The notes beneath the pieces are model-generated. The model worked only from the letters and a program-made list of their open reading frames with translations, was not told the origin of the DNA and searched no databases. From Eledone cirrhosa (Eukaryota), in the NCBI GenBank assembly GCA_964016885.1, contig OZ024741.1, forward strand, positions 49,786,001 to 49,850,000: a DNA stretch of 64,000 bases. Reading direction: 5' to 3'. Made by a program: the position numbers and the translations under genes. Of this stretch, positions 1 through 51,252 are shown piece by piece; position 1 is the stretch's first letter; each line of letters starts with the position of its first letter.

Positions 1-3000
1 ATCTATGGTACAGTATAGTACAACATACTATGATATTGTCATCTATGGTACAGTATAGTACAACATACTATGGTATTGTCATCTATGGTACAGTATAGTA
101 CAACATACTATAACATTGTCATCTATGGTACAGTATAGTACAACATACTAGGATATTGTCATCTATGGTACAGTATAGTCCAAGATACTATGATATTGTC
201 ATCTATGGTACAGTATAGTACAACATACTATGATATTGTCATCTATGGTACAGTATAGTACAACATACTATAACATTGTCATCTATGGTACAGTATAGTA
301 CAACTTACTATGATATTGTCATCTATGGTACAGTATAGTACAGCTTACTATAATATTGTCATCTATAGTACAGTATAGTACAGCTTACTATGATATTGTC
401 ATCTATAGTACAGTATAGTACAACATACTATGATATTGTCATCTATGTACAGTATAGTACAGCTTACTATGATATTGTCATCTATGGTACAGTATAGTAC
501 AGCTTACTATGATATTGTCATCTATGGTAAAGTATAGTACAGCAAACTATAACATTGTCATCTATGGTACAGTATAGTACAACATACTATAATATTGTCA
601 TCTATGGTACAGTATAGTACAGCTTACTATGATATTGTCATCTATGGTACAGTATAGTATAACATACTATAATATTGTCATCTATGGTACAGTATAGTAC
701 AACTTACTATGATATTGTCATCTATGGTACAGTATAGTACAGCTTACTATGATATTGTCATCTATGGTACAGTATAGTACAGCTTACTATGATATTGTCA
801 TCTATGGTACAGTATAGTACAGCTTACTATGATATTGTCATCTATGGTACAGTATAGTACAGCTTACTATAATATTGTCATCTATGGTATAGTATAGTAC
901 AGCTTACTATGATATTGTCATCTATGGTACAGTATAGTACAACATACTATAATATTGTCATCTATGGTACAGTATAGTACAACATACTATGATATTGTCA
1001 TCTATGGTACAGTATAGTACAACATACTATGATATTGTCATCTATAGTACAGTATAGTACAACTTACTATGATATTGTCATCTATGGTACAGTATAGTAC
1101 AACATACTATAATATTGTCATCTATGGTACAGTATAGTACAACATACTATGATATTGTCATCTATGATACAGTATAGTACAACTTACTATGATATTGTCA
1201 TCTATAGTACAGTATAGTACAACTTACTATGATATTGTCATCTATTGTACAGTATAGTACAGCTTACTATGATATTGTCATCTATGGTACAGTATAGTAC
1301 AACATACTATGATATTGTCATCTATGGTACAGTATAGTACAACATACTATAATATTGTCATCTATGGTACAGTATAGTATAGCATACTATGATATTGTCA
1401 TCTATGGTACAGTATAGTACAACATACTATAACATTGTCATCTATAGTACAGTATAGTACAACATACTATAATATTGTCATCTATGGTACAGTATAGTAC
1501 AGCTTACTATGATATTGTCATCTATGGTACAGTATAGTACAGCTTACTATGGTATTGTCATCTATAGTACAGTATAGTACAGCTTACTATAATATTGTCA
1601 TCTATAGTACAGTATAGTACAGCATACTATGATATTGTCATCTATAGTACAGTATAGTACAGCTTACTATAATATTGTCATCTATAGTTCAGTATAGTAC
1701 AGCTTACTATAATATTGTCATCTATAGTACAGTATAGTACAGCTTACTATGGTATTGTCATCTATGGTACAGTATAGTACAGCTTACTATGGTATTGTCA
1801 TCTATGGTACAGTATAGTACAACATACTATAATATTGTCATCTATGGTACAGTATAGTACAACATACTATGATATTGTCATCTATGGTACAGTATAGTAC
1901 AGCAAACTATAATATTGTCATCTATGGTACAGTATAGTACAGCTTACTATGGTATTGTCATCTATGGTACAGTATAGTACAACATACTATGATATTGTCA
2001 TCTATGGTACAGTATAGTACAGCAAACTATAATATTGTCATCTATGGTACAGTATAGTACAGCATACTATGATATTGTCATCTATGGTACAGTATAGTAC
2101 AACATACTATAATATTGTCATCTATGGTACAGTATAGTACAGCAAACTATAATATTGTCATCTATGGTACAGTATAGTATAGCTTACTATAATATTGTCA
2201 TCTATGGTACAGTATAGTACAGCTTACTATGGTATTGTCATCTATGGTACAGTATAGTACAGCTTACTATAATATTGTCATCTATAGTACAGTATAGTAC
2301 AGCTTATTATGGTACAGTATAGTAGAGCTTACTATGATATTGTCATCTATGGTAAAGTATAGTACAGCAAACTATAATATTGTCATCTATGGTACAGTAT
2401 AGTACAGCTTACTATGATATTGTCATCTATAGTACAGTATAGTACAGCTTACTATGATATTGTCATCTATAGTACAGTATAGTGCAGCTTACTATGATAT
2501 TGTCATCTATGGTACAGTATAGTACAGCTTACTATAATATTGTCATCTATAGTACAGTATAGTACAGCTTACTATGATATTGTCATCTATGGTACAGTAT
2601 AGTACAGCTTACTATGATATTGTCATCTATGGTAAAGTATAGTACAGCAAACTATAATATTGTCATCTATGGTACAGTATAGTACAGCTTACTATGATAT
2701 TGTCATCTATAGTACAGTATAGTACAGCTTACTATGATATTGTCATCTATAGTACAGTATAGTACAGCTTACTATGATATTGTCATCTATGGTACAGTAT
2801 AGTACAGCTTACTATAATATTGTCATCTATAGTACAGTATAGTACAGCTTACTATGATATTGTCATCTATGGTACAGTATAGTACAGCAAACTATAATAT
2901 TGTCATTTATGTACAGTATAGTACAACATACTATGATATTGTCATCTATGGTACAGTATAGTACAACTTACTATGATATTGTCTTCTATGGTACAGTATA

Positions 3001-6000
3001 GTACAACATACTATGATATTGTCATCTATGGTACAGTATAGTACAGCTTACTATGATATTGTCATCTATGGTACAGTATAGTACAACTTACTATGATATT
3101 GTCATCTATGGTACAGTATAGTACAACATACTATAACATTGTCATCTATGGTACAGTATAGTACAACATACTATAATATTGTCATCTATGGTACAGTATA
3201 GTACAGCTTACTAGGATATTGTCATCTATTGTACAGTATAGTACAACTTACTATGATATTGTCATCTATGGTACAGTATAGTACAACATACTATGATATT
3301 GTCATCTATGGTACAGTATAGTACAACTTACTATGATATTGTCATCTATGGTACAGTATAGTACAGCTTACTATGATATTGTCATCTATGGTACAGTATA
3401 GTACAACATACTAGGATATTGTCATCTATGGTACAGTATAGTACAACATACTAGGATATTGTCATCTATGGTACAGTATAGTACAACATACTATAATATT
3501 GTTATCTATGGTACAGTATAGTACAACATACTATGGTATTGTCATCTATGGTACAGTATAGTACAACATACTATGGTATTGTCATCTATGGTACAGTATA
3601 GTACAACATACTACGATATTGTCATCTATAGTACAGTATAGTACAGCTTACTACGATATTGTCATCTATAGTACAGTATAGTACAGCTTACTATAATATT
3701 GTCATCTATGGTACAGTATAGTACAGCTTACTACGATATTGTCATCTATAGTACAGTATAGTACAGCTTACTATAATATTGTCATCTATGGTACAGTATA
3801 GTACAACATACTATAATATTGTCATCTATAGTACAGTATAGTACAGCATACTATGATATTGTCATCTATAGAACAGTATAGTACAACATACTATAATATT
3901 GTCATCTATGGTACAGTATAGTACAACATACTATGATATTGTCATCTATGGTACAGTATAGTATAGCATACTATGATATTGTCATCTATGGTACAGTATA
4001 GTATAGCATACTATGATATTGTCATCTATGGTACAGTATAGTACAGCAAACTATAATATTGTCATCTATAGTACAGTATAGTATAACATACTATAATATT
4101 GTCATCTATAGTACAGTATAGTACAACATACTATGATATTGTCATCTATGGTACAGTATAGTACAACTTACTATGATATTGTCATCTATGGTACAGTATA
4201 GTACAGCTTACTATAATATTGTCATCTATGGTATAGTATAGTACAGCTTACTATAATATTGTCATGTATAGTACAGTATAGTACAACATACTATGATATT
4301 GTCATCTATGGTATAGTATAGTACAGCTTACTATAATATTGTCATGTATAGTACAGTATAGTATAACATACTATAATATTGTCATCTATGGTACAGTATA
4401 GTACAGCTTACTACGATATTGTCATCTATAGTACAGTATAGTACAGCTTACTATAATATTGTCATGTATAGTACAGTATAGTATAACATACTATAATATT
4501 GTCATCTATAGTACAGTATAGTACAACATACTATAATATTGTCATCTATGGTACAGTATAGTACAGCTTACTATGATATTGTCATCTATGGTACAGTATA
4601 GTACAGCTTACTATGATATTGTCATCTATGGTACAGTATAGTACAACATACTATAACATTGTCATCTATAGTACAGTATAGTACAACATACTATGATATT
4701 GTCATCTATGGTACAGTATAGTACAGCTTACTATAACATTGTCATCTATGGTACAGTATAGTATAACATACTATAATATTGTCATATATGGTACAGTATA
4801 GTACAGCTTACTATAATATTGTCATCTATGGCACAGTATAGTACAGCTTACTATAATATTGTCATCTATAGTACAGTATAGTACAACATACTATGATATT
4901 GTCATCTATGGTACAGTATAGTACAACATACTATGATATTGTCATCTATGGTACAGTATAGTACAGCTTACTATAATATTGTCATCTATAGTACAGTATA
5001 GTACAGCTTACTATGGTATTGTCATCTATGGTACAGTATAGTACAACATACTATGATATTGTCATCTATGGTACAGTATAGTACAACATACTATAATATT
5101 GTCATCTATGCTACAGTATAGTACAGCTTACTACGATATTGTCATCTATGGTACAGTATAGTACAGCTTACTATAATATTGTCATCTATGGTACAGTATA
5201 GTACAGCTTACTATGATATTGTCATCTATAGTACAGTATAGTACAACATACTATAATATTGTCATCTATGGTACAGTATAGTACAACATACTATAATATT
5301 GTCATCTATGGTACAGTATAGTACAGCTTACTATAATATTGTCATCTATGGTACAGTATAGTACAGCTTACTATGATATTGTCATCTATAGTACAGTATA
5401 GTACAACATACTATGATATTGTCATCTATGGTACAGTATAGTACAACTTACTATGATATTGTCATCTATGGTACAGTATAGTACAACATACTATAATATT
5501 GTCATCTATGGTACAGTATAGTACAGCTTACTATGATATTGTCTTCTATGGTACAGTATAGTACAGCAAACTATAATATTGTCATCTATGGTACAGTATA
5601 GTACAACTTACTATGATATTGTCATCTATGGTACAGTATAGTACAGCTTACTATGGTACAGTATAGTACAGCTTACTATAATATTGTCATCTATGGTATA
5701 GTATAGTACAGCTTACTATGATATTGTCATCTATGGTACAGTATAGTACAGCTTACTATAATATTGTCTTCTATGGTACAGTATAGTACAACATACTATA
5801 ATATTGTCATCTATGGTACAGTATAGTACAGCTTACTATAATATTGTCATCTATGGTACAGTATAGTACAGCTTACTATAATATTGTCTTCTATGGTACA
5901 GTATAGTACAACATACTATAATATTGTCATCTATGGTACAGTATAGTACAGCTTACTATGATATTGTCATCTATGGTACAGTATAGTACAGCTTACTATG

Positions 6001-7190
6001 ATATTGTCATCTATGGTATAGTATAGTACAGCTTACTATGATATTGTCATCTATGTACAGTATAGTACAGCTTACTATGATATTGTCATCTATGGTACAG
6101 TATAGTACAGCTTACTATGGTACAGTATAGTACAGCTTACTATAATATTGTCATCTATGGTATAGTATAGTACAGCTTACTATGATATTGTCATCTATGT
6201 ACAGTATAGTACAGCTTACTATGATATTGTCATCTATGGTACAGTATAGTACAGCTTACTATGGTACAGTATAGTACAGCTTACTATAATATTGTCATCT
6301 ATGGTATAGTATAGTACAGCTTACTATGATATTGTCATCTATGTACAGTATAGTACAGCTTACTATGATATTGTCATCTATGGTACAGTATAGTACAGCT
6401 TACTATGGTACAGTATAGTACAGCTTACTATAATATTGTCATCTATGGTACAGTATAGTACAGCTTACTATAATATTGTCATCTATGGTACAGTATAGTA
6501 CAACATACTATGATATTGTCATCTATGGTACAGTATAGTACAGCTTACTATGGTATTGTCATCTATGGTACAGTATAGTAGAGCTTACTATAATATTGTC
6601 ATCTATGGTACAGTATAGTACAGCAAACTATAATATTGTCATCTATGGTACAGTATAGTACAGCAAACTATAATATTGTCATCTATGGTACAGTATAGTA
6701 CAACATACTATGATATTGTCATCTATGGTACAGTATAGTACAACAAACTATAATATTGTCATCTATGGTACAGTATAGTACAACTTACTATGATATTGTC
6801 ATCTATGGTACAGTATAGTACAGCTTACTATGATATTGTCATCTATGGTACAGTATACTACAACTTACTATGATATTGTCATCTATGGTACAGTATAGTA
6901 CAGCTTACTATGATATTGTCATCTATGGTACAGTATAGTACAACATACTATGATATTGTCATCTATGGTACAGTATAGTACAGCAAACTATAATATTATC
7001 ATCTATAGTACAGTATAGTACAACTTACTATGATATTGTCATCTATGGTACAGTATAGTACAGCAAACTATAATATTATCATCTATAGTACAGTATAGTA
7101 CAGCTTACTATGATATTGTCATCTATGGTACAGTATAGTACAGCAAACTATGGTATTGTCATTTATGGTATAGTATAATACAGTATAATA
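1..7190. repeat. 40-bp tandem satellite, about 180 units, open at the window start
   Basis: Unit TGTCATCTATGGTACAGTATAGTACA(ACAT/GCTT)ACTATGATAT repeated continuously, with occasional 39- and 25-nt units. Confidence 0.98.
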
Positions 7191-14534: not shown

Positions 14535-16197
14535 AACCACATTTACTGTGTATACTGGGTGTTTTGGGTCATGTCACCTACTTGACCACATTTACTGTGT
14601 ATACTGGGTGTTTTTGGTCATGTCACCTACTTGACCACATTTACTGTGTATACTGGGTGTTTTTGGTCATGTCACCTACTTGACCACATTTACTGTGTAT
14701 ACTGGGTGTTTTTGGTCATGTCACCTACTTGACCACATTTACTGTGTATACTGGATGTTTTTGGTCATGTCACCTACTTGACCACATTTACTGTGTATAC
14801 TGGGTGTTTTTGGTCATGTCACCTACTTGACCACATTTACTGTGTATACTGGGTGTTTTTGGTCATGTCACCTACTTGACCACATTTACTGTGTATACTG
14901 GGTGTTTTTGGTCATGTCACCTACTTGACCACATTTACTGTGTATACTGGGTGTTTTTGGTCATGTCACCTACTTGACCACATTTACTGTGTATACTGGG
15001 TGTTTTTGGTCATGTCACCTACTTGACCACATTTACTGTGTATACTGGGTGTTTTTGGTCATGTCACCTACTTGACCACATTTACTATGTATACTGGGTG
15101 TTTTTGGTCATGTCACCTACTTGACCACATTTACTGTGTATACTGGGTGTTTTTGGTCATGTCACCTACTTGACCACATTTACTGTGTATACTGGGTGTT
15201 TTTGGTCATGTCACCTTCTTGACCACATTTACTGTGTATACTGGGTGTTTTTGGTCATGTCACCTACTTGATCACTTTACAGAGTGTACTGGGTGCTTTT
15301 TGTCATGTCACCTACTTGATCACTTTACAGAGTGTACTGGGTGCTTTTTGTCATGTCACCTACATGACCACTTTACAGAGTGTACTGGGTGCTTTTTGTC
15401 ATGTCACCTACATGACCACTTTACAGTGTATACTGGGTGCTTTTTGTCATGTCACCTACTTGACCACTTTACAGTGTGTACTGGGTGCTTTTTGTCATGT
15501 TACCTACATTACCACTTTACAGTGTGTACTGGGTGCTTTTTGTCATGTCACCTACTTGACCACTTTACAGTGTGTACTGGGTGCTTTTTGTCATGTTACC
15601 TACATTACCACTTTACAGTGTGTACTGGGTGCTTTTTGTCATGTCACCTACTTGACCACTTTACAGTGTGTACTGGGTGCTTTTTGTCATGTCACCTACT
15701 TGACCACTTTACAGTGTGTACTGGGTGCTTTTTGTCATGTTACCTACATTACCACTTTACAGTGTGTACTGGGTGCTTTTTGTCATGTTACCTACATTAC
15801 CACTTTACAGTGTGTACTGGGTGCTTTTTGTCATGTCACCTACTTGACCACTTTACAGTGTGTACTGGGTGCTTTTTGTTATGTCACCTACTTGACCACT
15901 TTACAGTGTGTACTGGGTGCCTTTTGTCATGTTACCTACATTACCACTTTACAGTGTGTACTGGGTGCTTTTTGTCATGTCACCTACTTGACCACTTTAC
16001 AGTGTGTACTGGGTGCTTTTTGTTATGTCACCTACTTGACCACTTTACAGTGTGTACTGGGTGCCTTTTGTCATGTTACCTACATTACCACTTTACAGTG
16101 TGTACTGGGTGCTTTTTGTTATGTCACCTACTTGACCACTTTACAGTGTGTACTGGGTGCTTTTTGTTGTGACATCTACATGACCACTTTACAGTGG
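14535..16197. repeat. Bipartite minisatellite: 49-bp units (to ~15270), then 48-bp units
   Basis: TGACCACATTTACTGTGTATACTGGGTGTTTTTGGTCATGTCACCTACT then TGACCACTTTACAGTGTGTACTGGGTGCTTTTTGTCATGTCACCTACT. Confidence 0.97.
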
Positions 16198-18469: not shown

Positions 18470-18760
18470 TCATCATCATCACTGTTTAACGTCCATTTTT
18501 CCACGTTAGCATGAGTCAGACGAGTTTTCTTGTTGTGAGATAAGCCAGGTTCGATGACTATGTCTTGCTCATACAGAACTGATTTTGGCTTGGTTTCTAC
18601 AGCTGGATGCCCTTCTTAATGCCAACCATATTTACAATGTGTACTGGGTGCTTTTTGTCATAGCACCTACATGACCACTTTACAGTGTGGACTAGGTGCT
18701 TTTTGTCATGGTACCTACATGACCACTTTACAGTGTGGACTAGGTGCTTTTTGTCAGTAC
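18470..18760. mobile_element. Dispersed (CAT)n-tailed non-autonomous retroposon-like element with internal 48-bp unit; other copies ~9710, 14380, 29420-29840, 33660, 35100, 36005-36575, 37540, 56920
   Basis: Shared blocks catcatcat..tttaacgtcc..gcatggg and tttctacagctggatgcccttcctaacaccaacc in many copies on both strands. Confidence 0.8.
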
Positions 18761-22975: not shown

Positions 22976-23170
22976 GCGGTGGATTGGCAGTATCGGTAGA
23001 GGGTCGAACGCCATGCTTTGACGTATAGAGTTACGGCCTTTGCCATTCTGAGTTCAAATCCCGCCGAGGTTAACTTTGCCTTTCATCCTTATGGGGTCGA
23101 TAAAAAATAAAGTACCAGTAATGCACTGGGTAAGTGTTGGCCTTGTGCCAAAAGTAGAAACAATTATTAC
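22976..23170 (+). mobile_element. tRNA-derived SINE (representative); other copies ~8275, 11320, 17955, 21360, 22265(-), 22840, 29050, 30225, 33120, 40785-41415(-, three), 43395, 45972, 52595
   Basis: A-box-like TGGCAGTATCGG, B-box GAGTTCAAATCC, core gcctttcatccttacggggtcgataaaataaagtaccag, (ATT)n tail. TSDs visible, e.g. attatctaactataatatt at ~29012 and ~29225. Confidence 0.9.
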
Positions 23171-23305: not shown

Positions 23306-23649
23306 TGTGATGGTTGCATGTACAACATGTGTGAACAATGTGATGAATGCTAATGAGAAGCTGACACTAGAAACTACATGTAATAACTGTGGTGATGATG
23401 CAAATTCCCTGACATATGAATGGAAAGTCTTCCGAATTATTGATGATAAATACAATAGAAACTTCGGCGCTCATGACTATGGTAAATGTGTTGAAGCCAA
23501 TGGTTCATCTTACATACATATCAAATTGAATAACACCAAGGAAAACAACAACACTAACACAAATACTACACAACCACCAACTACAACTACAACTACATCA
23601 ACAACTTCATCAGCCATTCTGCCCAAAATGCCACCTATGTATGATCCAG
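23306..23649 (+). CDS. PKD1L1: Exon H, REJ plus start of Thr/Asn-rich insert (VMVACTTC...CNNCGDDANSLTYEWKV...TTTTTTSTTSSAILPKMPPMYDP)
   Basis: ttgtctag acceptor, gtatgt donor, phase 2-1. Confidence 0.92.
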
Positions 23650-24674: not shown

Positions 24675-24716
24675 TTGGAAGAATAGCGGAAGGCCCTTTT
24701 CCAGAATACATAGATG
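24675..24716 (+). CDS. PKD1L1: Micro-exon W, 42 nt ((V)GRIAEGPFPEYID)
   Basis: poly-T...catttctag acceptor, G|gtaagt donor, phase 1-1, open frame. Confidence 0.7.
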
Positions 24717-25680
24717 GTAAGTTTGGTATTGCTTCTATATTTTCTTTCTTGTCTAATTTTCATTTTTAGAATGTTTTAAATAAGGTCCTTAAATGAGTTG
24801 TAACTAGGTATCTAAAATCAGGAGCTTTAGAATCTCCTTTCTCTCCCTTTTCTCTAATACAGCAGTTAAAATTGTTGTATTATGTGGGCTTCATATTTTT
24901 TTTTGGGGGGGCCCTTTTGTTATAATTATTGATTGTTTGATAAAGTATTTGAACAACTTTTATTGATTCAAAATTACAGTCCATTGTATATATTTACAAA
25001 CTAGAAGAGAGAAAACTGGAAAAAAGGCAGCATACTATTTTTTTTTAGTATTTCATATACTCTCAGATTCCAAATAATGGGAGGGTTGGAATAAGATAGA
25101 GGGAGGGGGTCGCTAATTTTTCTAGGTTATCTCTGAAAAACCAAAATTAGTTGTTTAATTTACATATTGAGATTAAATTTTGCTAATCTATCTCCTGCAA
25201 AATGTTATTTTCTGCAACAAGTAATTTTCTTTAGGCATTAAAAAACATTATACATGTCAAAAGAAGTATATTACTAGAAATCCCTTTTATTATAAAATAA
25301 ATAGGATGGGTTTGGGGGTTTCAATATGTAAAACAAATGACTAATTCTGGGGGGGGGGTTTTAAATCAACGGAGGCAACCTAGAAAAATTATCAATTTTT
25401 TAATCCCCTCATGTATTTATTCCAACTTCCCCGTTTATTCCAGCCTCCCACTTATTCCAACCCCACCTATTATTTGGGGCCCGAGAGTAGACGATATTCA
25501 TCTTAAACAGAGGTATTTTGGATATATTAGGATGAAGTAACATTTCAAAAAGACATGGTCTTCCAATATTTTACTCTGTCCATAATGATCAGAACTAAAT
25601 TTTTATCTTATTTTCCTTTTTGTGTGAAGAGACTTACAAATTTTATATTTCTCTTATGTACTAACATTTTCTTCCTACAG

Positions 25681-25728
25681 AGGTTTTTGAAGAAAAACCT
25701 AAAGGTAGCAGACCAGATCGTAGGCAAA
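25681..25728 (+). CDS. PKD1L1: Micro-exon X1, 48 nt ((E)VFEEKPKGSRPDRRQ)
   Basis: Perfect TACTAAC branch point, ttttcttcctacag acceptor, gtaagc donor, phase 1-1. Confidence 0.78.
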
Positions 25729-26690
25729 GTAAGCAGAATTTTCATAAATTTTGATTTTTTTTTGCTTTTCTCTCTTTTTTTTTTTTTTTTTCATTTCTTA
25801 TCAGAGAAAATCTCTCAACCAATATCAATCACTCTTACTCATCTACACCATGATGGATATCAATAGAATACCATTTTATTTTGTGAACACAGAATTAACA
25901 TTAAAGATAAAATTAAAAGTAGATCAATCAAGGTGTTTTTATACTTAGGAATTACTTGTTGATTCCTAAGTTGTTGTATTTCCTCAGAGTTAGTCCTTCT
26001 TACAGATTCTTGTCTCTCCAACACTTTGACTTAATCTTGGGCCGCTGATAGCAAAGTTCTTATCGTTGGTGGCTTGCCTTATCGATGTATCAGGTTATGC
26101 CCGTGAGGGTGTCTGGTTGTTTCAGTGCCTTAGCCCCACTATCACCTGCAGTAATGCTGCGAGTGTGTTGGCTTACCTCAAAAATTTCTGTTGACCCTTC
26201 TGGTGTATGGTATGGTGTGGTGTGCAGCCAATTATTACACTTGGTGGTAAATTGATGGTTGTTATTGTTTGTTTGTTTTTTTCCTTTTCTTTTTCTCTCA
26301 CTTCGATCATACACTTTTGTGCATTATATTTGTGAGGACCCTAGCAATAATTAATTATATTTGTTATATGTGACCCTCACATATTTTCATTCAGTAAGAA
26401 TTATAAACAATTTTTAATGTTATTGATTAATCTGCAAATGGTTATTGATGTTTTCGATAAATCAAAACAATGATGAAATGAATAAATTGATTTGAACTAT
26501 TTTACAAAGCTAACCAGGTGCACTTCATCAAGGCATCAATACTTAATTTTTAATTATTATTTATCAATATTATTATTGTTATGTCTACAATATATTATGT
26601 CTTGACTTTTAATCCATAGTTCATCAGTTAGTTGTTTCATCAATCATATAAATGTTGGCTGAAAATAGAATATATCTTCAATTGTATTCC

Positions 26691-27105
26691 CTCAAACCAC
26701 GGTACTGTGGTCTGCAATGCAGGGGACAAGAAGACAAACAAATACCAGAGATTGTCCGGTCACTTCCTCTTCGCACCAGTTGCCAGTGAGACATCAGGCA
26801 TCCTTGGATCTTGTACTGCCGAGCTCCACCACAAAAACAGAACATCAGCAGCTCGTCTGAGGAAGAAACTCCACGAGGTGGGGTGGCTGTTGCAGTGGGC
26901 GTCACTGGCTATTATTCGCGGAATGTTTTTGCAGTTTTGTCCGCGGGACGCAACCTCAACATCACCATGCTCTAGGTCCAGAGCCCCTCATCTTCTTCCT
27001 TTCCCTCTCCATTTCTTCTGTGGTCCTAGAGTCCTTGCTTTTCACCTCCTTTTCCTCTCATTTATGGCTTTTATAGTCCTTTTCTCCTTCTAATTTTAAA
27101 TAGTA
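26691..27105 (+). mobile_element. CRE-like non-LTR retrotransposon 3' fragment inserted in one copy of the local duplication
   Basis: KKTNKYQRL..HFLFAPVASETSG...LLQWASLAIIRG. The segment is absent at the homologous position (~30738) of the second copy. Confidence 0.55.
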
Positions 27106-27212
27106 TTTTATTAGATATATAAACCAGAGTAGGAGAATATATGATAAAATGGCAGTTATGGAAATTTTTGATTTCTGTGAATTTTCACTATTTTTTTTTT
27201 TTCAATTTTTAG

Positions 27213-27248
27213 TCGACATCCCATTGCATCCTCTTCAGGAGGAAACTG
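27213..27248 (+). CDS. PKD1L1: Micro-exon Y1, 36 nt ((I)DIPLHPLQEET)
   Basis: poly-T acceptor tttttag, G|gtatgt donor, phase 1-1. Confidence 0.72.
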
Positions 27249-27367
27249 GTATGTTTAATTTTTTACTTCATTATTTCCATGTTGAAGTTGAATAATATTT
27301 TCATTTTTGTGTGAAGAGACTTACAAATTTTATATTTCTCTTATGTACTAACATTTTCTTCCTACAG

Positions 27368-27415
27368 AGGTTTTTGAAGAAAAACCTAAAGGTAGCAGAC
27401 CAGATCGTAGGCAAA
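27368..27415 (+). CDS. PKD1L1: Micro-exon X2, 48 nt, identical to X1
   Basis: Same branch point, acceptor, exon and donor sequence as 25681-25728. Confidence 0.75.
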
Positions 27416-29388
27416 GTAAGCAGAATTTTCATAAATTTTGATTTTTTTTTCGATTTTTTTCATTTCTTATCAGAGATAATCTTTCAACCAATATCAATCA
27501 CTAGAATAATAACCAGCCTTGCTGCATTTCACACATTTCTTTTGTAAGAAAATGATGATTGATTTTAAATCAGTGATATAATTTATGGAGAAAAAATAAA
27601 GGGAAAATGTTAAAAAAGTAGGGGCATTAACTAATAATTTTTGTTGTCATAATTCTAGTAATGTTTTACCATAGATAAAATGTCTAAATTAGCCAAATTT
27701 TACTATAAAAGAGAGGTACTTTTTTTGTTGATTTATATTTAACTAATAGAAAAACTCTGTGATAATAGAGGTTCCAATACTCAAGTTATGGGCTTTCAAA
27801 ATTTTCACTATAGGGGGTTTAACCCCCATTAGGGTGTCTTAATATTATTGAAATTTGCTAAAATTTTATGAATAGGCATCATATCTTGTCATTTACCTAT
27901 GGTTTAAATTTCATATAAATCGAAAGGAAAAAATTTTCAGAAGGGGTTTGTGCCCCCGGGGAATCCTTTCATTAAAATGAAATAAGGTACTCTGCTATAG
28001 AAGCGAGGTGCTTTTTTTGTTGATTTACATTTAATTAATAGAAAAACCCTATGATAAAAATGAACCCTTTGATTAAAATGAAATATACTTATCCAAGTAC
28101 CCTGGGCAATGTAGTTTCAGAATATATATAGTTATGGGGTCTATCTCCAAAACAATAGGAGGAGTTCGTGAACAAACAAACAGACAGGAACTACAACTTT
28201 ATTATATAAAATGAAAATTATTGTGTACAGTGCTCAGGTGCATTACAACTCATCAAAGGTCCATGAATAATATACAAATGTCAGGAAAGTGAACAGTGTG
28301 TGGGTCATGATATACACACAGATACATGCATGTGTGTGTATGGAGGGGTAATATTAGGTGTAGTGTTGGTGAATTTCAGGAAGTATGGAAGCTAATTTAT
28401 TGTAGGTTATTCTCTCTTTAACCCTTTAGTATTTCCATTACTCTATATTTACTGTTGTATTTTCACAGTAAACACTTTATTTCACATAACATCAGTATGA
28501 GCAGCTGGGTACGGCCAGTTTAAATGCTAAAGGGTTAAATATGTTTAGATCATTCTATATGTTTGGCTAAATATTAAATTCTTTATTATTTCTATGTAAT
28601 TTTATCCTAAATATTTATTGTCTGATTAAATAAAAGCACAATCTTTAAACAATATTTCAAGCTATCTATATCATCAGCAAATTTGATATATAATATATAT
28701 GTTTATGAAATAAACATGATTCTATGTCGTGTAACATTTTGCTGTCTGTAACACAGTCTAATGCATAGGAATCCTAAGAAGAAATTGTTCAATACATGGG
28801 GCAATTCCATCAGCAAAGGCACAGACCCTCATGAGAGACACATTCAGGCAACAAAAATCAAATGTGACCTCAACAGAGCATAGTTAGTCAACAACTCGAA
28901 TAAAGCCATGGAAAATATATCTCCTATGTGTGGTCATTAATTCTGTGATAGAATCACACACAGCAGCCATCTTTGGTCACAAAAGTCAATCAATGGAACA
29001 AAATCAAAGACATTATCTAACTATAATATTATAAGTATCGGTATAATATTAAGTATCGGTAGAGGGTCGGACGCCATGCTTTGACGCATAGAGTTACGGA
29101 CCTTGCCATTCTGAGTTCAAATCCCGTCGAGGTTAACTTTGCCTTTCATCCTTACGAGGGTCGATAAAATAAAGTACCAGTAATGCACTGGGTAGTTGCT
29201 GGCCTTGTGCCGAAAGAAGAAACAATTATCTAACTATAATATTCTATTATAGTTCAACTATATTATTAAATCTTAACAAAACTACTATATCCATATTTTT
29301 ATACCAAAGAAAAGTGCATATGGCTAGATTTGAAATTACAGACCTAGTCAATGAAGTACAGTTACTGTCCTACTGAGATGCAGATTCT

Positions 29389-29426
<38 letters not shown>

Positions 29427-30851
29427 AAGTTATGTTGGTGCCACAACATCCAGGCCGAAACAAATGAGATCGTGTAGGTGTCACGACAAAAAAAAAACAC
29501 ACAGTCCATGCTGTAATGTGGCCGTGTAGGCAACACGGTAAAAACCTGCCAGCCCCACACTGTAAATGTGGTTGGTGTTAGGAAGGGCATCCAGCTGTAG
29601 AAAACCCGCCAGACAGTCCACGCTGTAATGTGGCCGTGTAGGCAATACGGTAAAAACCTCCCAGCCCCACACTGTAAATGTGGTTGGTGTTAGGAAGGGC
29701 ATCCAGCTGTAGAAAACCCGCCAGACAGTCCTATGCGAGCAAGACAATCACTCTTGCCTCAAGTGGGAAAACCCCCGTCCCAACCCATGCAAGCGTGGAA
29801 CACGGACGTTAAACGATGATGATGATGATGATGATGATGATATCTGTTATATATATATAATATATATATGTATGTAATATATATATTATATCATCAATAT
29901 AAGCCCACATTCCATGCTGACATGAGTTGCACAGTTTGTCATGGTGTGAGACTAAACAGGCTGGAGAGAGCTCATATATTCCATATTTGGCATGGTTTCT
30001 ACAGCTTTCTAATGGCAACCCCTTTAGAGTGTACAAGGTGCATTTTATCAAGGCACCAGCACCAGAGATGTCAACATATACTTGGTCTGACTGAAGAGGC
30101 TTCTTTACCATGTATTGTCTTTATTCAATTACCAACCATTTTACAAAGAGTACCAGGTGCACTTCATCATCATGGCATTAATATTTTTTTTTTTTTTTTA
30201 TTATTTATCAATATTATTCCTTGTGGATTGGCAGTATCGGTAGAGAGTCGGACGCCATGCTTTCCAGCATAGTTACGTCCCTTTACGATCTGAGTTCAAA
30301 TCCCGCCGAGGTTGACTTTGCCTTTCATCCTTACAGGGTCGATAAAATAAAGTACCAGTAATACACTGGGTAATTGCTGGCCTTGTGCCTAAAAGTAGAA
30401 ACAATTATTCCTTTAGCATTTACATACTATTGTATTTTGGTGGTAAAGGCTTTACCTTACAAAATTATCTCACATAATACTGAATCTATGAGATTTTGAT
30501 GTTATTTACTTTGTGAACAATACCTTAATGTTAGTATGAGTGGCCAGTTGCGGCCGGTTTGAACAGAAAGAGGTAAGAGAATTCTGGCTGGATACGGCCA
30601 GTTTAGATGTTACAGTGTTAATATTGTTGTGTCTACAATAGATTATGTCTTAACTTTCATTCCATAGTTCATCAGTTAGTTGTTTCATCAATAATATAAA
30701 TGTTGGCGGAAAATAGAATATATCTTCAATTGTATTCCATAACGTATTAGATATATAAACCAGAGTAGAAGAATATTTTATATGATGAAATGGTTGTTAT
30801 TGAAATTTATGATTTCTATGAATTTTCACTATTTTTAAAAATTATTTTTAG

Positions 30852-30893
30852 GCTATAGCAGAAAACCATCGCATACTCAACAGAAGAAATCTG
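30852..30893 (+). CDS. PKD1L1: Micro-exon Y2, 42 nt ((S)YSRKPSHTQQKKS), paralog of Y1
   Basis: atttttag acceptor, G|gtatgt donor, phase 1-1; upstream intron homologous to that of Y1. Confidence 0.72.
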
Positions 30894-31229
30894 GTATGTT
30901 TATTTTTTGACTTTGTTGAGAAGCAGTTGATTGGAGCATTGTACAAAATACTTTGCAGTTTCTAGTTATGTCTCTTTATGTTCTGAGTTCAAATCCTGCT
31001 GAGCTCAACATTACCTTTCATCCTATTCAGATCGATAGAATAAAATACGAGTAAAGTAATAGGGTTGATACAATTGACTGTCCCCTCCCCTGTAAATTGC
31101 TGCCATTGAACGCAAATTAGAAACTTAGTTATCTGCATTGTGGCAACTTTACTTTCAAATTTCCCAATGCTATATAAGTCAACCAATCTTGTTTGCTCTT
31201 TTAACTACACACTTAAATATTTATTAGAT

Positions 31230-32200: not shown

Positions 32201-32386
32201 ATCCAATTGCATCTGCTAAGAGCAAGCCACACATTGAGGAACATATTGTTAGAAAATCACGTCGGGAAGTTGTGTTAAGCAACAATGATACTTTAAGTAT
32301 GATGAGTGCTCAGTCTCTTGTTATTAAACCAGGTGTGCTGTCTCAGGGACGAGACTACTTCATCAGTGTAAATGTCTCAAAAAAAG
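32201..32386 (+). CDS. PKD1L1: Exon I, end of insert and return to REJ (PIASAKSKPHIEEHIVRKSRREVVL...SLVIKPGVLSQGRDYFISVNVSKK)
   Basis: ttttcag acceptor, gttggt donor, 186 nt, phase 1-1. Confidence 0.88.
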
Positions 32387-46876: not shown

Positions 46877-47089
46877 CTAAATTTGGAATCAGCAAGTTTG
46901 GCATTAAATATACTCCAATCAATTCTTGATGCTTCAAAGAAACTTTATGATGTGATGGGTCACCAGACAGAAAACCTCCTTCAACTTGCCATTGATTCTT
47001 TATCAAATATAGTTGAAGCATCATCTACATCAGTAGATTCCACAAAATTCATTGTAAAATCATCAGATGTGGCAAATGGATTCATTACG
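46877..47089 (+). CDS. PKD1L1: Exon O, helical region (LNLESASLALNILQSILDAS...SLSNIVEAS...GFIT)
   Basis: tttgcag acceptor, gtaact donor, 213 nt, phase 0-0. Confidence 0.87.
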
Positions 47090-50000: not shown

Positions 50001-51252
50001 TGCTGTATTTCATGTTACATACATTTAAATCATTTGAAATAATATTTTTCCATATTTTCTTTAATCATTATCAAATGTATACCCACTAAATTATGATGAC
50101 TTTGTTCTATCTATATATCTATCTATCTATTATCTATCTACCTGTCTATCTTCTGACTTCCATTGGATTCCTATTTTTATTTTATTTTGTTTGTTGTTGT
50201 CTATACATGGATAAATATACATAAATAGGTAGATGGTTAGTTAGTTAGATAGACACACAGAGAAATAGACAGACGGACAAATATACAGATAGACAATGAG
50301 ACAAGCATGCAGATAGACAGATAGATAGATAAATAGATAGATGTTGTTTTTATTATTGCAAGATAGATAGATACATAGGGACATGGGCATTGGCTGTTTC
50401 CATCCAACTGACCAGAGAGTGGATATGACCTGTCAATACTGTGTGTGACAGAGGGAGGTAGGGAGGAAGATATCACAGTACATACATTCTCAAATTACTG
50501 TTTACCAAACAAATCTACCACAAAGTGGTCAAATGATTTTGAGTTTTATTATATAAAGGAACGATTGACTTTCGTCAAATCAGACCGAGGAAACAATGTT
50601 TCTATCGGTCTTTCCAGTTACTAATACTATCTATCAGTTGCAACTCCAGGTAGAAGGAGCAACGTGAAATAAAGTGTATTGCTCAAGGACATAACGCATC
50701 GCCCGGTCTGGGAATCGAACTCACAACCTCACGATTGCGAATCTAAATCTCTAACCACTCAGCCACATGCCTTTATTATAAAAGATTATAAAAATTTTCA
50801 AAACCAATAACTGCTTTCAATAAGATGTAACTACATTGCCTAATTGTTTCTGCTTTGTATTCTCAAAATTATTCAACTGGTTACAGTAGAAATAAATAAA
50901 ATGCTTCTTTTCCTTCTTCTTCTCCTCGTCCTCCTTCTCCTTCTTCCTGAGAGGGTTGTGGGACAGTCCTCAAACAGTCCTTCCAGCAGGTCCTGTCAGA
51001 AGCAACTGTATCCAACTGATCTGGCCATATCCCCAAGCGAGACCAGCCAAGCTTATGGATGTTATCCAACCATCTTGCTTGGGGTCTACTCTGGGTCTCC
51101 TGTCAGTTGGTTTTGTCCGTAAAAATCTATCCAGAGATTCAAACTACATGCCCATAGTATCGGAGCTGTAATCTCTCAGTTCAGAAATAAAATAAAATGC
51201 TTGTCATCTTAAAATATTACTTCAATGGATTTATATTTTTTTTTCTTATTAG

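What the first reader, a model, noticed from the sequence alone, without database searches (positions are those of the whole stretch)
24675..30893. Cassette of five frame-preserving micro-exons building a variable insert inside the REJ module of a PKD1L1-like receptor
Seen: the 8.5-kb gap between exons H and I holds five tiny exons (42, 48, 36, 48, 42 nt). All have AG/GT sites, all are phase 1-1, all are multiples of 3, and none is called in-frame by the ORF track. Fully included they read ...PPMYDP-VGRIAEGPFPEYID-EVFEEKPKGSRPDRRQ-IDIPLHPLQEET-EVFEEKPKGSRPDRRQ-SYSRKPSHTQQKKS-DPIAS... Known (from recollection): PKD1L1 has a low-complexity insert at this point of REJ. Inference: any subset can be skipped in frame (up to 32 combinations), so splicing could tune the length and charge of an extracellular loop in a ciliary or sensory polycystin.
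Basis: partly seen in the sequence, partly recalled or inferred. Interest (0 to 1): 0.85.

Follow-up and report, generated by a model that had tools for sequence, protein, structure and literature searches.

The report
Duplicated micro-exons in cephalopod polycystin loop
Five tiny exons in a cephalopod PKD1L1 (polycystin) gene encode part of a predicted floppy outer loop typical of this gene family; two are local duplicates, and the one RNA sample available likely includes all five together, so mix-and-match splicing is possible but not shown.

Summary
The five exons are real: AG/GT, phase 1-1, open frame, at the stated places; 5 found against 0.2-0.3 expected. They are not five independent units. 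m2 and m4 are identical and m3/m5 are paralogues from a 1.7-kb tandem duplication, so there are 28 possible mRNAs, not 32. In one spliced RNA assembly of the same species, two contigs end exactly where full inclusion predicts (72 and 71 letters); 1 of 28 single isoforms fits, the all-five form. This is inferred from lengths; junction letters were not seen. Depth was 6-10, and skipping of the duplicated pair would be invisible. The gene is PKD1L1-clade; 53 of 54 rows of that clade carry a long loop here, other REJ proteins do not. A cuttlefish model puts it at pLDDT <50 inside the third REJ sandwich. Verdict: a family-typical disordered loop lengthened by exon duplication, probably mostly constitutive. 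Residual interest: m3/m5 diverged faster than their introns with a charge flip, and furin-type sites are enriched in this loop across the clade.

The parts
23306..23649 (+). Exon H: first half of the third REJ sandwich domain plus the Thr-rich start of the loop; ends in phase 1
   Evidence: (Pfam REJ); RNA contigs match 23306-23447 and 23484-23647 with 0 other letters
24675..24716 (+). Micro-exon m1, 42 nt, phase 1-1, net charge -2; UGC at -15 and the longest AG-free zone (112 nt) of the 22 acceptors scored
25681..25728 (+). Micro-exon m2, 48 nt, phase 1-1; matches one segment of the Argonauta loop
   Evidence: 0 of 1000 shuffles as high; inclusion inferred
27213..27248 (+). Micro-exon m3, 36 nt, phase 1-1, net charge -3; diverged paralogue of m5
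   Evidence: inclusion inferred only from the two contig break points
27368..27415 (+). Micro-exon m4, 48 nt, identical to m2; only 119 nt of intron after m3
30852..30893 (+). Micro-exon m5, 42 nt, phase 1-1, net charge +4
32201..32386 (+). Exon I: end of the loop and second half of the third REJ domain; phase 1-1
   Evidence: RNA contig matches 32200-32386 with 0 other letters
25609..27295 (+). Tandem duplication, copy 1 (about 1,687 bp; holds m2 and m3)
   Evidence: (D2, D5, D8, D13, D19)
27296..30913 (+). Tandem duplication, copy 2 (holds m4 and m5; its middle intron is 3.4 kb against 1.5 kb and carries interspersed repeats)
25617..25763 (+). 147-nt block identical to 27304-27450 (m2/m4 with flanks): likely later gene conversion
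   Evidence: two copies only in G000

Best explanation
These are five real micro-exons of a cephalopod PKD1L1 gene that are likely spliced in together as the main form, and they encode 72 residues of a predicted disordered loop in the third REJ domain; the set likely grew from three to five by a local tandem duplication. Steps: (1) shown: the PKD1L1 clade carries a long, length-variable, low-complexity loop at this point. (2) shown: a 1.7-kb unit holding two micro-exons was duplicated head to tail (m2+m3, m4+m5). (3) inferred: because the unit was phase 1-1 and the loop tolerates any length, both copies could be included in series and the loop gained 28 residues. (4) inferred: m2/m4 were later homogenised by gene conversion while m3/m5 diverged by amino-acid-changing substitutions. 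(6) inferred, untested: the loop acts as a glycosylated, charged, protease-accessible spacer on the ectodomain of a PKD2-partnered sensory receptor; its length changes mainly between species, by exon gain, rather than between cells, by splicing.
For: RNA run X11 (table 8): record 2 is 236 nt, matches 23484-23647 and has 72 more letters; record 8 is 1094 nt, with 71 letters before 32200. With k=31 (Logan preprint) only the all-five isoform predicts 72/71: 1 of 28 singles, 2 of 378 pairs, 1 of 3276 triples, each containing the full form. The sums are exact: 166+42+28=236; 30+42+exons I to O=1094. 25 of the 27 other isoforms would move the breaks if present in the graph. Three Logan ORFs of a cuttlefish-like species (2220, 2220, 3195 aa) run through the loop unbroken with the same 138-aa span. 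Duplication. Loop length: Argonauta 104 aa between flanks with one m2-like segment; the window has about 129 with and 101 without the duplicated 28 aa (my count). Clade: 53 of 54 rows long, 33 of 33 outside short. Model: pLDDT <50 over residues 291-390, about 85-98 in the strands on both sides. m3-m4 intron is 119 nt with a branch motif at -20, leaving about 99 nt, so no steric exclusion is expected (the roughly 50-nt limit is recalled).
Against: The junction letters were not seen: table 5 was swamped by repeats (3027 rows not shown). X11's kind is not on record; I read it as RNA because its matches start and stop at exon edges. One sample, tissue unknown, depth 6.4 and 9.5; at depth 10 a 20% skip form has a 0.38 chance of one read or none, at depth 6 a 30% form 0.42, and Logan contigs are simplified graphs. 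Isoforms lacking m2+m3, m3+m4, or m3 alone are invisible beside the full form. In relative B (run X5) the listed contigs stop on both sides of the loop (records 17 and 24), which may be low complexity, alleles or splicing. The Sepia pharaonis model is 10 aa shorter in the loop than the Logan form (128 vs 138), which may be a species difference, a missed micro-exon or a skip. The structure model and the tree use orthologues, not the window's own protein.
Confidence: 0.65

Rival explanations
1. Two-length switch: m1 and m5 are constitutive, but the duplicated pair is optional (skip m2+m3 or m3+m4, same product), giving the ancestral-length loop or one 28 aa longer.
For: This is exactly what the contig breaks cannot exclude. 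m2 and m4 have identical acceptors and branch motifs, so m1 could splice to either. Tandem exon duplicates are generally linked to alternative use (PMC3342872).
Against: No direct evidence. The full path must exist at enough depth to survive graph simplification. No depth for the 50-nt and 94-nt loop contigs was shown; Logan reports contigs over 150 bp.
Confidence: 0.2
2. One reading: regulated combinatorial skipping of several micro-exons tunes loop length and charge by tissue or cell type; m1 could be a neural eMIC/Srrm-type exon.
For: All 28 products are in frame. Exons differ in charge (-2, +2, -3, +2, +4). m1 has UGC at -15 and a 112-nt AG-free zone, both listed as eMIC features in Drosophila (PMC8797185). 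Break at the loop in relative B. One predicted bowfin PKD1L1 lacks the loop altogether (P0055), so the domain may fold without it.
Against: 25 of 27 alternative isoforms would have moved the contig breaks and did not. Only three independent exons; 8 of 15 other exons are symmetric too. UGC in 1 of 5 acceptors is near chance. Annotated Haliotis isoforms differ at the N-terminus, not in the loop (2 of 2 pairs). P0055 may be a prediction error.
Confidence: 0.12
3. Some of the five are pseudo-exons left by the duplication (m3, or one of m2/m4), or the identity of m2 and m4 is an assembly artefact.
For: m3 diverged quickly from m5; its use is inferred only from break points. 147 identical nt within otherwise 78-93% alike duplicates.
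Against: Both RNA contigs break exactly where a repeated m2/m4 with m3 between them demands; without m3 the prediction is 74/71 or no break. The RNA run is a different sample from the DNA runs (S9 vs S8), so exon identity is not only the assembly's. m3 has the best splice-site score in the region.
Confidence: 0.03

Closest known systems
PKD1L1 (polycystin-1-like 1) of vertebrates and its invertebrate orthologues (Sepia pharaonis CAE1153380.1, Argonauta hians GAB1601011.1)
   Same: PKD repeats, REJ, GPS, PLAT, polycystin channel; long low-complexity loop at the same REJ position; same side of the tree as named squirrel, mole-rat, wrasse, toad and bowfin PKD1L1.
   Different: Here the loop is built from micro-exons with a lineage-specific duplication. 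Exon structure of the loop in relatives could not be read. Cilia and flow sensing are shown in mouse (PMC4894641), not in cephalopods.
Tandem exon duplication with mutually exclusive splicing (Dscam type; PMC3342872)
   Same: Intragenic head-to-tail duplication of exons with their flanks, followed by divergence of the copies.
   Different: The copies are likely included in series, not exclusively; the duplicated unit holds two exons; one pair stays identical.
Schistosoma micro-exon genes (MEGs; PMC5825161)
   Same: Run of short symmetric exons coding an exposed, low-complexity peptide; any subset in frame.
   Different: MEGs have about 80% of the coding region in 6-36 bp exons and shown protein variants; here 216 nt in a gene of roughly 4,000 codons, exons of 36-48 nt, no variant shown.
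Neural micro-exon programme (Srrm4/eMIC; PMC8797185)
   Same: m1 has UGC near the 3' splice site and a long AG exclusion zone.
   Different: The other four lack UGC; splice sites are not weak by my crude score; no tissue data.

Membership tests
PKD1L1 clade | PKD repeats + REJ + GPS + PLAT + polycystin channel | tested here: met
   Pfam on window exons and on orthologue P0013; colinear exons to the C-terminus in G000
PKD1L1 clade | Groups with vertebrate PKD1L1 rather than PKD1 or other REJ proteins | tested here: met
   Quick IQ-TREE of 87 REJ flanks: cephalopod orthologues fall with named PKD1L1 (SH-aLRT 99), Anolis PKD1 on the other side. Midpoint root, no bootstrap, window protein itself not a row. 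PMC13402157 did not resolve invertebrate members into vertebrate subgroups.
PKD1L1 clade | Long low-complexity loop in the third REJ domain | tested here: met
   Anchor distance 75-722 aa in 53 of 54 clade rows, 20-29 aa in 33 of 33 others; low pLDDT
PKD1L1 clade | Ciliary location, PKD2 partnership, flow response | not testable with these tools
   Mouse data only (PMC4894641, passages)
Schistosoma-type micro-exon gene | About 80% of coding region in 6-36 bp symmetric exons | tested here: not met
   5 exons, 216 nt, 36-48 nt each in a gene matching a 4,075-aa orthologue; definition
Schistosoma-type micro-exon gene | Many splice variants by exon skipping | tested here: inconclusive
   One shallow RNA assembly fits full inclusion
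Mutually exclusive tandem exons | Duplicated exons | tested here: met
Mutually exclusive tandem exons | Only one copy per transcript | tested here: not met
   Every isoform set that fits the contig breaks contains the all-five form; inferred from lengths
eMIC/Srrm neural micro-exons | UGC near the 3' splice site, long AG exclusion zone, weak 3' site | tested here: inconclusive
   m1 only: UGC at -15, zone 112 nt; acceptor score 5.3, not weak
eMIC/Srrm neural micro-exons | Neuron-specific inclusion | not testable with these tools
   No tissue-labelled RNA run was listed

The most novel reading that the evidence does not exclude
The PKD1L1 loop is a regulated, protease-accessible element of the receptor across animals (furin-type sites in 14 of 53 loops against 2.7 by shuffling), and in this cephalopod it has become a fast-evolving, splice-tunable module: duplicated micro-exons under positive selection for opposite charge are switched by tissue, giving sensory cells polycystin receptors with different loop length, charge and cleavability.
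Probability: 0.12. Interest if true: 0.7.

Novelty: new variant of a known kind. Interest (0 to 1): 0.3.

Why it matters
As it stands it is a clean example of how a disordered extracellular loop grows by micro-exon duplication with both copies kept in series, and it gives the correct gene model where predictors would drop 72 residues. It also pins down a clade-wide marker of PKD1L1, a long loop in the third REJ domain, often with convertase-type sites, which my searches did not find discussed (listings only). If tissue-specific skipping were found, it would offer a natural series of loop variants for asking what the REJ module does in flow or ligand sensing.

Tried and rejected
No RNA holder on record was listed. 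The joint, loose-end and depth tables were dominated by interspersed repeats and showed no splice joint; run X4 showed no exon piece among its 8 listed records; these blanks are not used. No solved structure covers REJ (hits only from PLAT/TM1 onward and PKD domains), so no fold search was run. Homologue searches found no named Octopus protein with the loop. m1, m3 and m5 peptides show no significant local match to the three cephalopod loops, and m2 matches only Argonauta (1 of 12 comparisons). A self-BLAST for internal repeats in loops gave 0 of 53 although the Haliotis loop visibly repeats, so that test is unreliable. The first exon-D boundary was wrong and was fixed; phases printed are therefore offset. 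Earlier scan notes: none. Rejected: chance splice sites, a dispersed repeat as source of m2/m4 (two copies only), a second gene copy (one match), steric mutual exclusion of m3/m4, the extra candidate at 50416-50457 (stop in the phase of its intron). No supplements were read.
Full report
Observation. The five exons are at 24675-24716, 25681-25728, 27213-27248, 27368-27415 and 30852-30893, each with AG/GT, phase 1-1, in one open frame with exons H and I. A crude splice-site scan returns exactly these 5 in the 8.45-kb interval, against 0.22 per 8.45 kb in the gene's other introns and 0.33 on the minus strand (thresholds were set after seeing the true exons). The window is G000:C2:49786001-49850000 of a 3.0-Gb genome. 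Its exons match Argonauta hians at 59-95% and a cuttlefish protein at 35-86%, so I call the animal a cephalopod, likely an octopod; the species was not determined.

m2 and m4 are identical, inside a 147-nt identical block (25617-25763 and 27304-27450) that occurs twice in the genome. m3 and m5 are paralogues, with upstream intron blocks 81%, 93% and 78% alike. The unit is about 25609-27295, repeated from 27296; the second copy's middle intron grew from 1,484 to 3,436 nt. So three independent exons became five, and the 32 subsets give 28 distinct products, none with a stop. The phase pattern is less striking than it looks: 8 of 15 ordinary exons C-Q are also multiples of 3 (boundaries picked, frame open from C to R). 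Argonauta's loop has one m2-like segment (0 of 1000 shuffles) and 104 residues between flanks, close to the window's length without the duplicated 28 residues (about 101, my count). The Argonauta model could have missed micro-exons.

The copies evolved unevenly. m3 and m5 differ at 13 of 36 nt against 23 of 229 in two flank blocks (Fisher p 1.7e-4; against the nearest block alone 0.0065; for the last 28 nt alone 0.03). About 10.8 changes are amino-acid-changing and 1.2 silent (pN 0.41, pS 0.17), and net charge goes from -3 to +4. This hints at positive selection, but there are only 6.8 silent sites, one flank block was picked by BLAST for its likeness, and a shifted acceptor may inflate the 5' mismatches. 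The perfect m2/m4 block is best read as later gene conversion (inference).

RNA evidence. No holder was on record as RNA, but run X11 (kind not on record, a different sample from the DNA runs) behaves as spliced RNA of this species: record 1 begins matching exactly at 23306, and records 1, 2 and 8 have 0 other letters (table 8). Record 2 (236 nt) matches 23484-23647 and has 72 more letters; record 8 (1094 nt) has 71 letters before 32200. Logan contigs are non-branching paths of a simplified k=31 graph in which each 31-mer occurs once, and contigs over 150 bp are reported (10.1101/2024.07.30.605881, passages). Simulating that graph, only the all-five isoform gives 72 and 71: 1 of 28 singles, 2 of 378 pairs, 1 of 3276 triples, always with the full form. 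The lengths add up exactly: 166+42+28 = 236, and 30+42+exons I to O = 1094. A break after 23647 also fits m1, m3 or m5 as next exon and not m2, m4 or I. So H is not joined straight to I, and m1, m2, m3, m4, m5 are likely all used in one path.

Limits of that evidence. The junction letters were not shown; the joint table was filled by repeats, with 3027 rows not shown. Depth was 6.4 and 9.5. Of 27 other isoforms, 25 would move the breaks, but a form at 20% has a 0.38 chance of at most one read at depth 10, and simplification drops rare paths. Two are invisible in any case: loss of the duplicated pair, and loss of m3 alone. In relative B (run X5) the two listed contigs stop on either side of the loop, which is open to several readings. 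In a cuttlefish-like species three Logan ORFs cross the loop unbroken with the same span, while the Sepia pharaonis model is 10 residues shorter. Haliotis isoform pairs differ only at the N-terminus.

The gene and the loop. Window exons hit Pfam PKD and REJ. The full-length orthologue P0013 has PKD, REJ, GPS, PLAT and channel domains, and matching exons continue in order to the C-terminus in G000. A search of 50% representatives with the REJ stretch gave 1111 hits, 150 listed. Of 164 proteins held, 129 had both loop anchors measurable: 69 under 60 residues apart, 59 at 100 or more, a few of these mis-paired. In a quick tree of 87 rows (both flanks near complete, combined score over 270, one duplicate isoform dropped) the long loop marks one side: 53 of 54 rows, with named squirrel, mole-rat, wrasse, toad and bowfin PKD1L1, Saccoglossus, Limulus, Lottia and Nematostella proteins; the other 33, with Anolis PKD1, have 20-29 residues (SH-aLRT 99, midpoint root, no bootstrap). 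A published TRP tree did not place invertebrate PKD1L1-named proteins in a vertebrate subgroup (PMC13402157, passages). An AlphaFold2 model of the cuttlefish-like stretch (37 sequences, mean pLDDT 80.6) shows four beta-sandwich blocks, with residues 291-390 under 50 and strands of the third block on both sides. The REJ module is described as FNIII-like domains (PMC3677617, passages).

How it likely works. The loop is a family-wide, length-tolerant, Ser/Thr/Pro/Gly-rich and charged insert (composition). In this lineage it is coded by small phase 1-1 exons; a two-exon unit duplicated in frame and both copies were kept in series. Its job is likely that of a glycosylated, flexible spacer on a PKD2-partnered sensory receptor (mouse PKD1L1 mediates a flow response through its ectodomain; PMC4894641, passages; nothing shown in cephalopods). 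R-x-K/R-R occurs in 14 of 53 loops against a shuffled mean of 2.7 (0 of 500; rows are related), so the loop may be convertase-cleaved in some lineages; the window's protein has only minimal R-x-x-R sites, two of them from m2/m4.

Comparison and novelty. Tandem exon duplications occur in 7-17% of metazoan genes and are usually mutually exclusive (PMC3342872, passages); here exclusivity is not met. Schistosoma micro-exon genes need about 80% of the coding region in 6-36 bp exons (PMC5825161, passages); not met. Only m1 carries eMIC-type marks (PMC8797185, passages). Searches for micro-exons in cephalopods (2 papers), PKD1L1 with octopus, PKD1L1 splicing and PKD1L1 with furin listed nothing on this loop or these exons; apart from the papers named I saw listings only, no supplements, and PMC5318412 in passages. 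Searches were further listings.

Verdict. Real exons, real duplication, known gene family and family-typical loop. Mainly constitutive inclusion 0.65; only the duplicated pair optional 0.2; regulated combinatorial use 0.12; pseudo-exons 0.03. New variant of a known kind; interest 0.3.

Noticed in passing
PKD1L1-clade proteins (e.g. P0042, P0046, P0064, P0016, P0031): Furin-type R-x-K/R-R motifs are enriched in the REJ loop: 14 of 53 against 2.7 in shuffles. A possible conserved convertase site in PKD1L1; one search listed nothing on it.
   Followed up: partly
window 46877-47089 (exon O): RNA record 8 of X11 ends exactly at this exon's 3' end, which implies a branch there (retained intron or another next exon). 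The candidate at 50416-50457 has a stop in the needed phase.
   Followed up: partly
P0017/P0025 (Haliotis asinina) loop: The abalone loop holds its own internal duplication of about 65-70 residues, so loop growth by duplication recurs.
   Followed up: no
P0055 (bowfin PKD1L1): The only clade member with no loop (21 residues between anchors); a natural skip or a prediction error.
   Followed up: no
window 1-7183 and 14536-16196: Intronic tandem arrays inside the gene: 40-bp unit x 182 and 48-bp unit x 34; the 48-bp unit recurs at 18631, 35242 and 37664.
   Followed up: no
window 23000-23167, 29063-29229, 30242-30407, 30935-31031: A high-copy interspersed repeat (SINE-like, name not tested) with very high depth in all four runs; three copies lie in the expanded intron of the second duplicate or just after it.
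   Followed up: no
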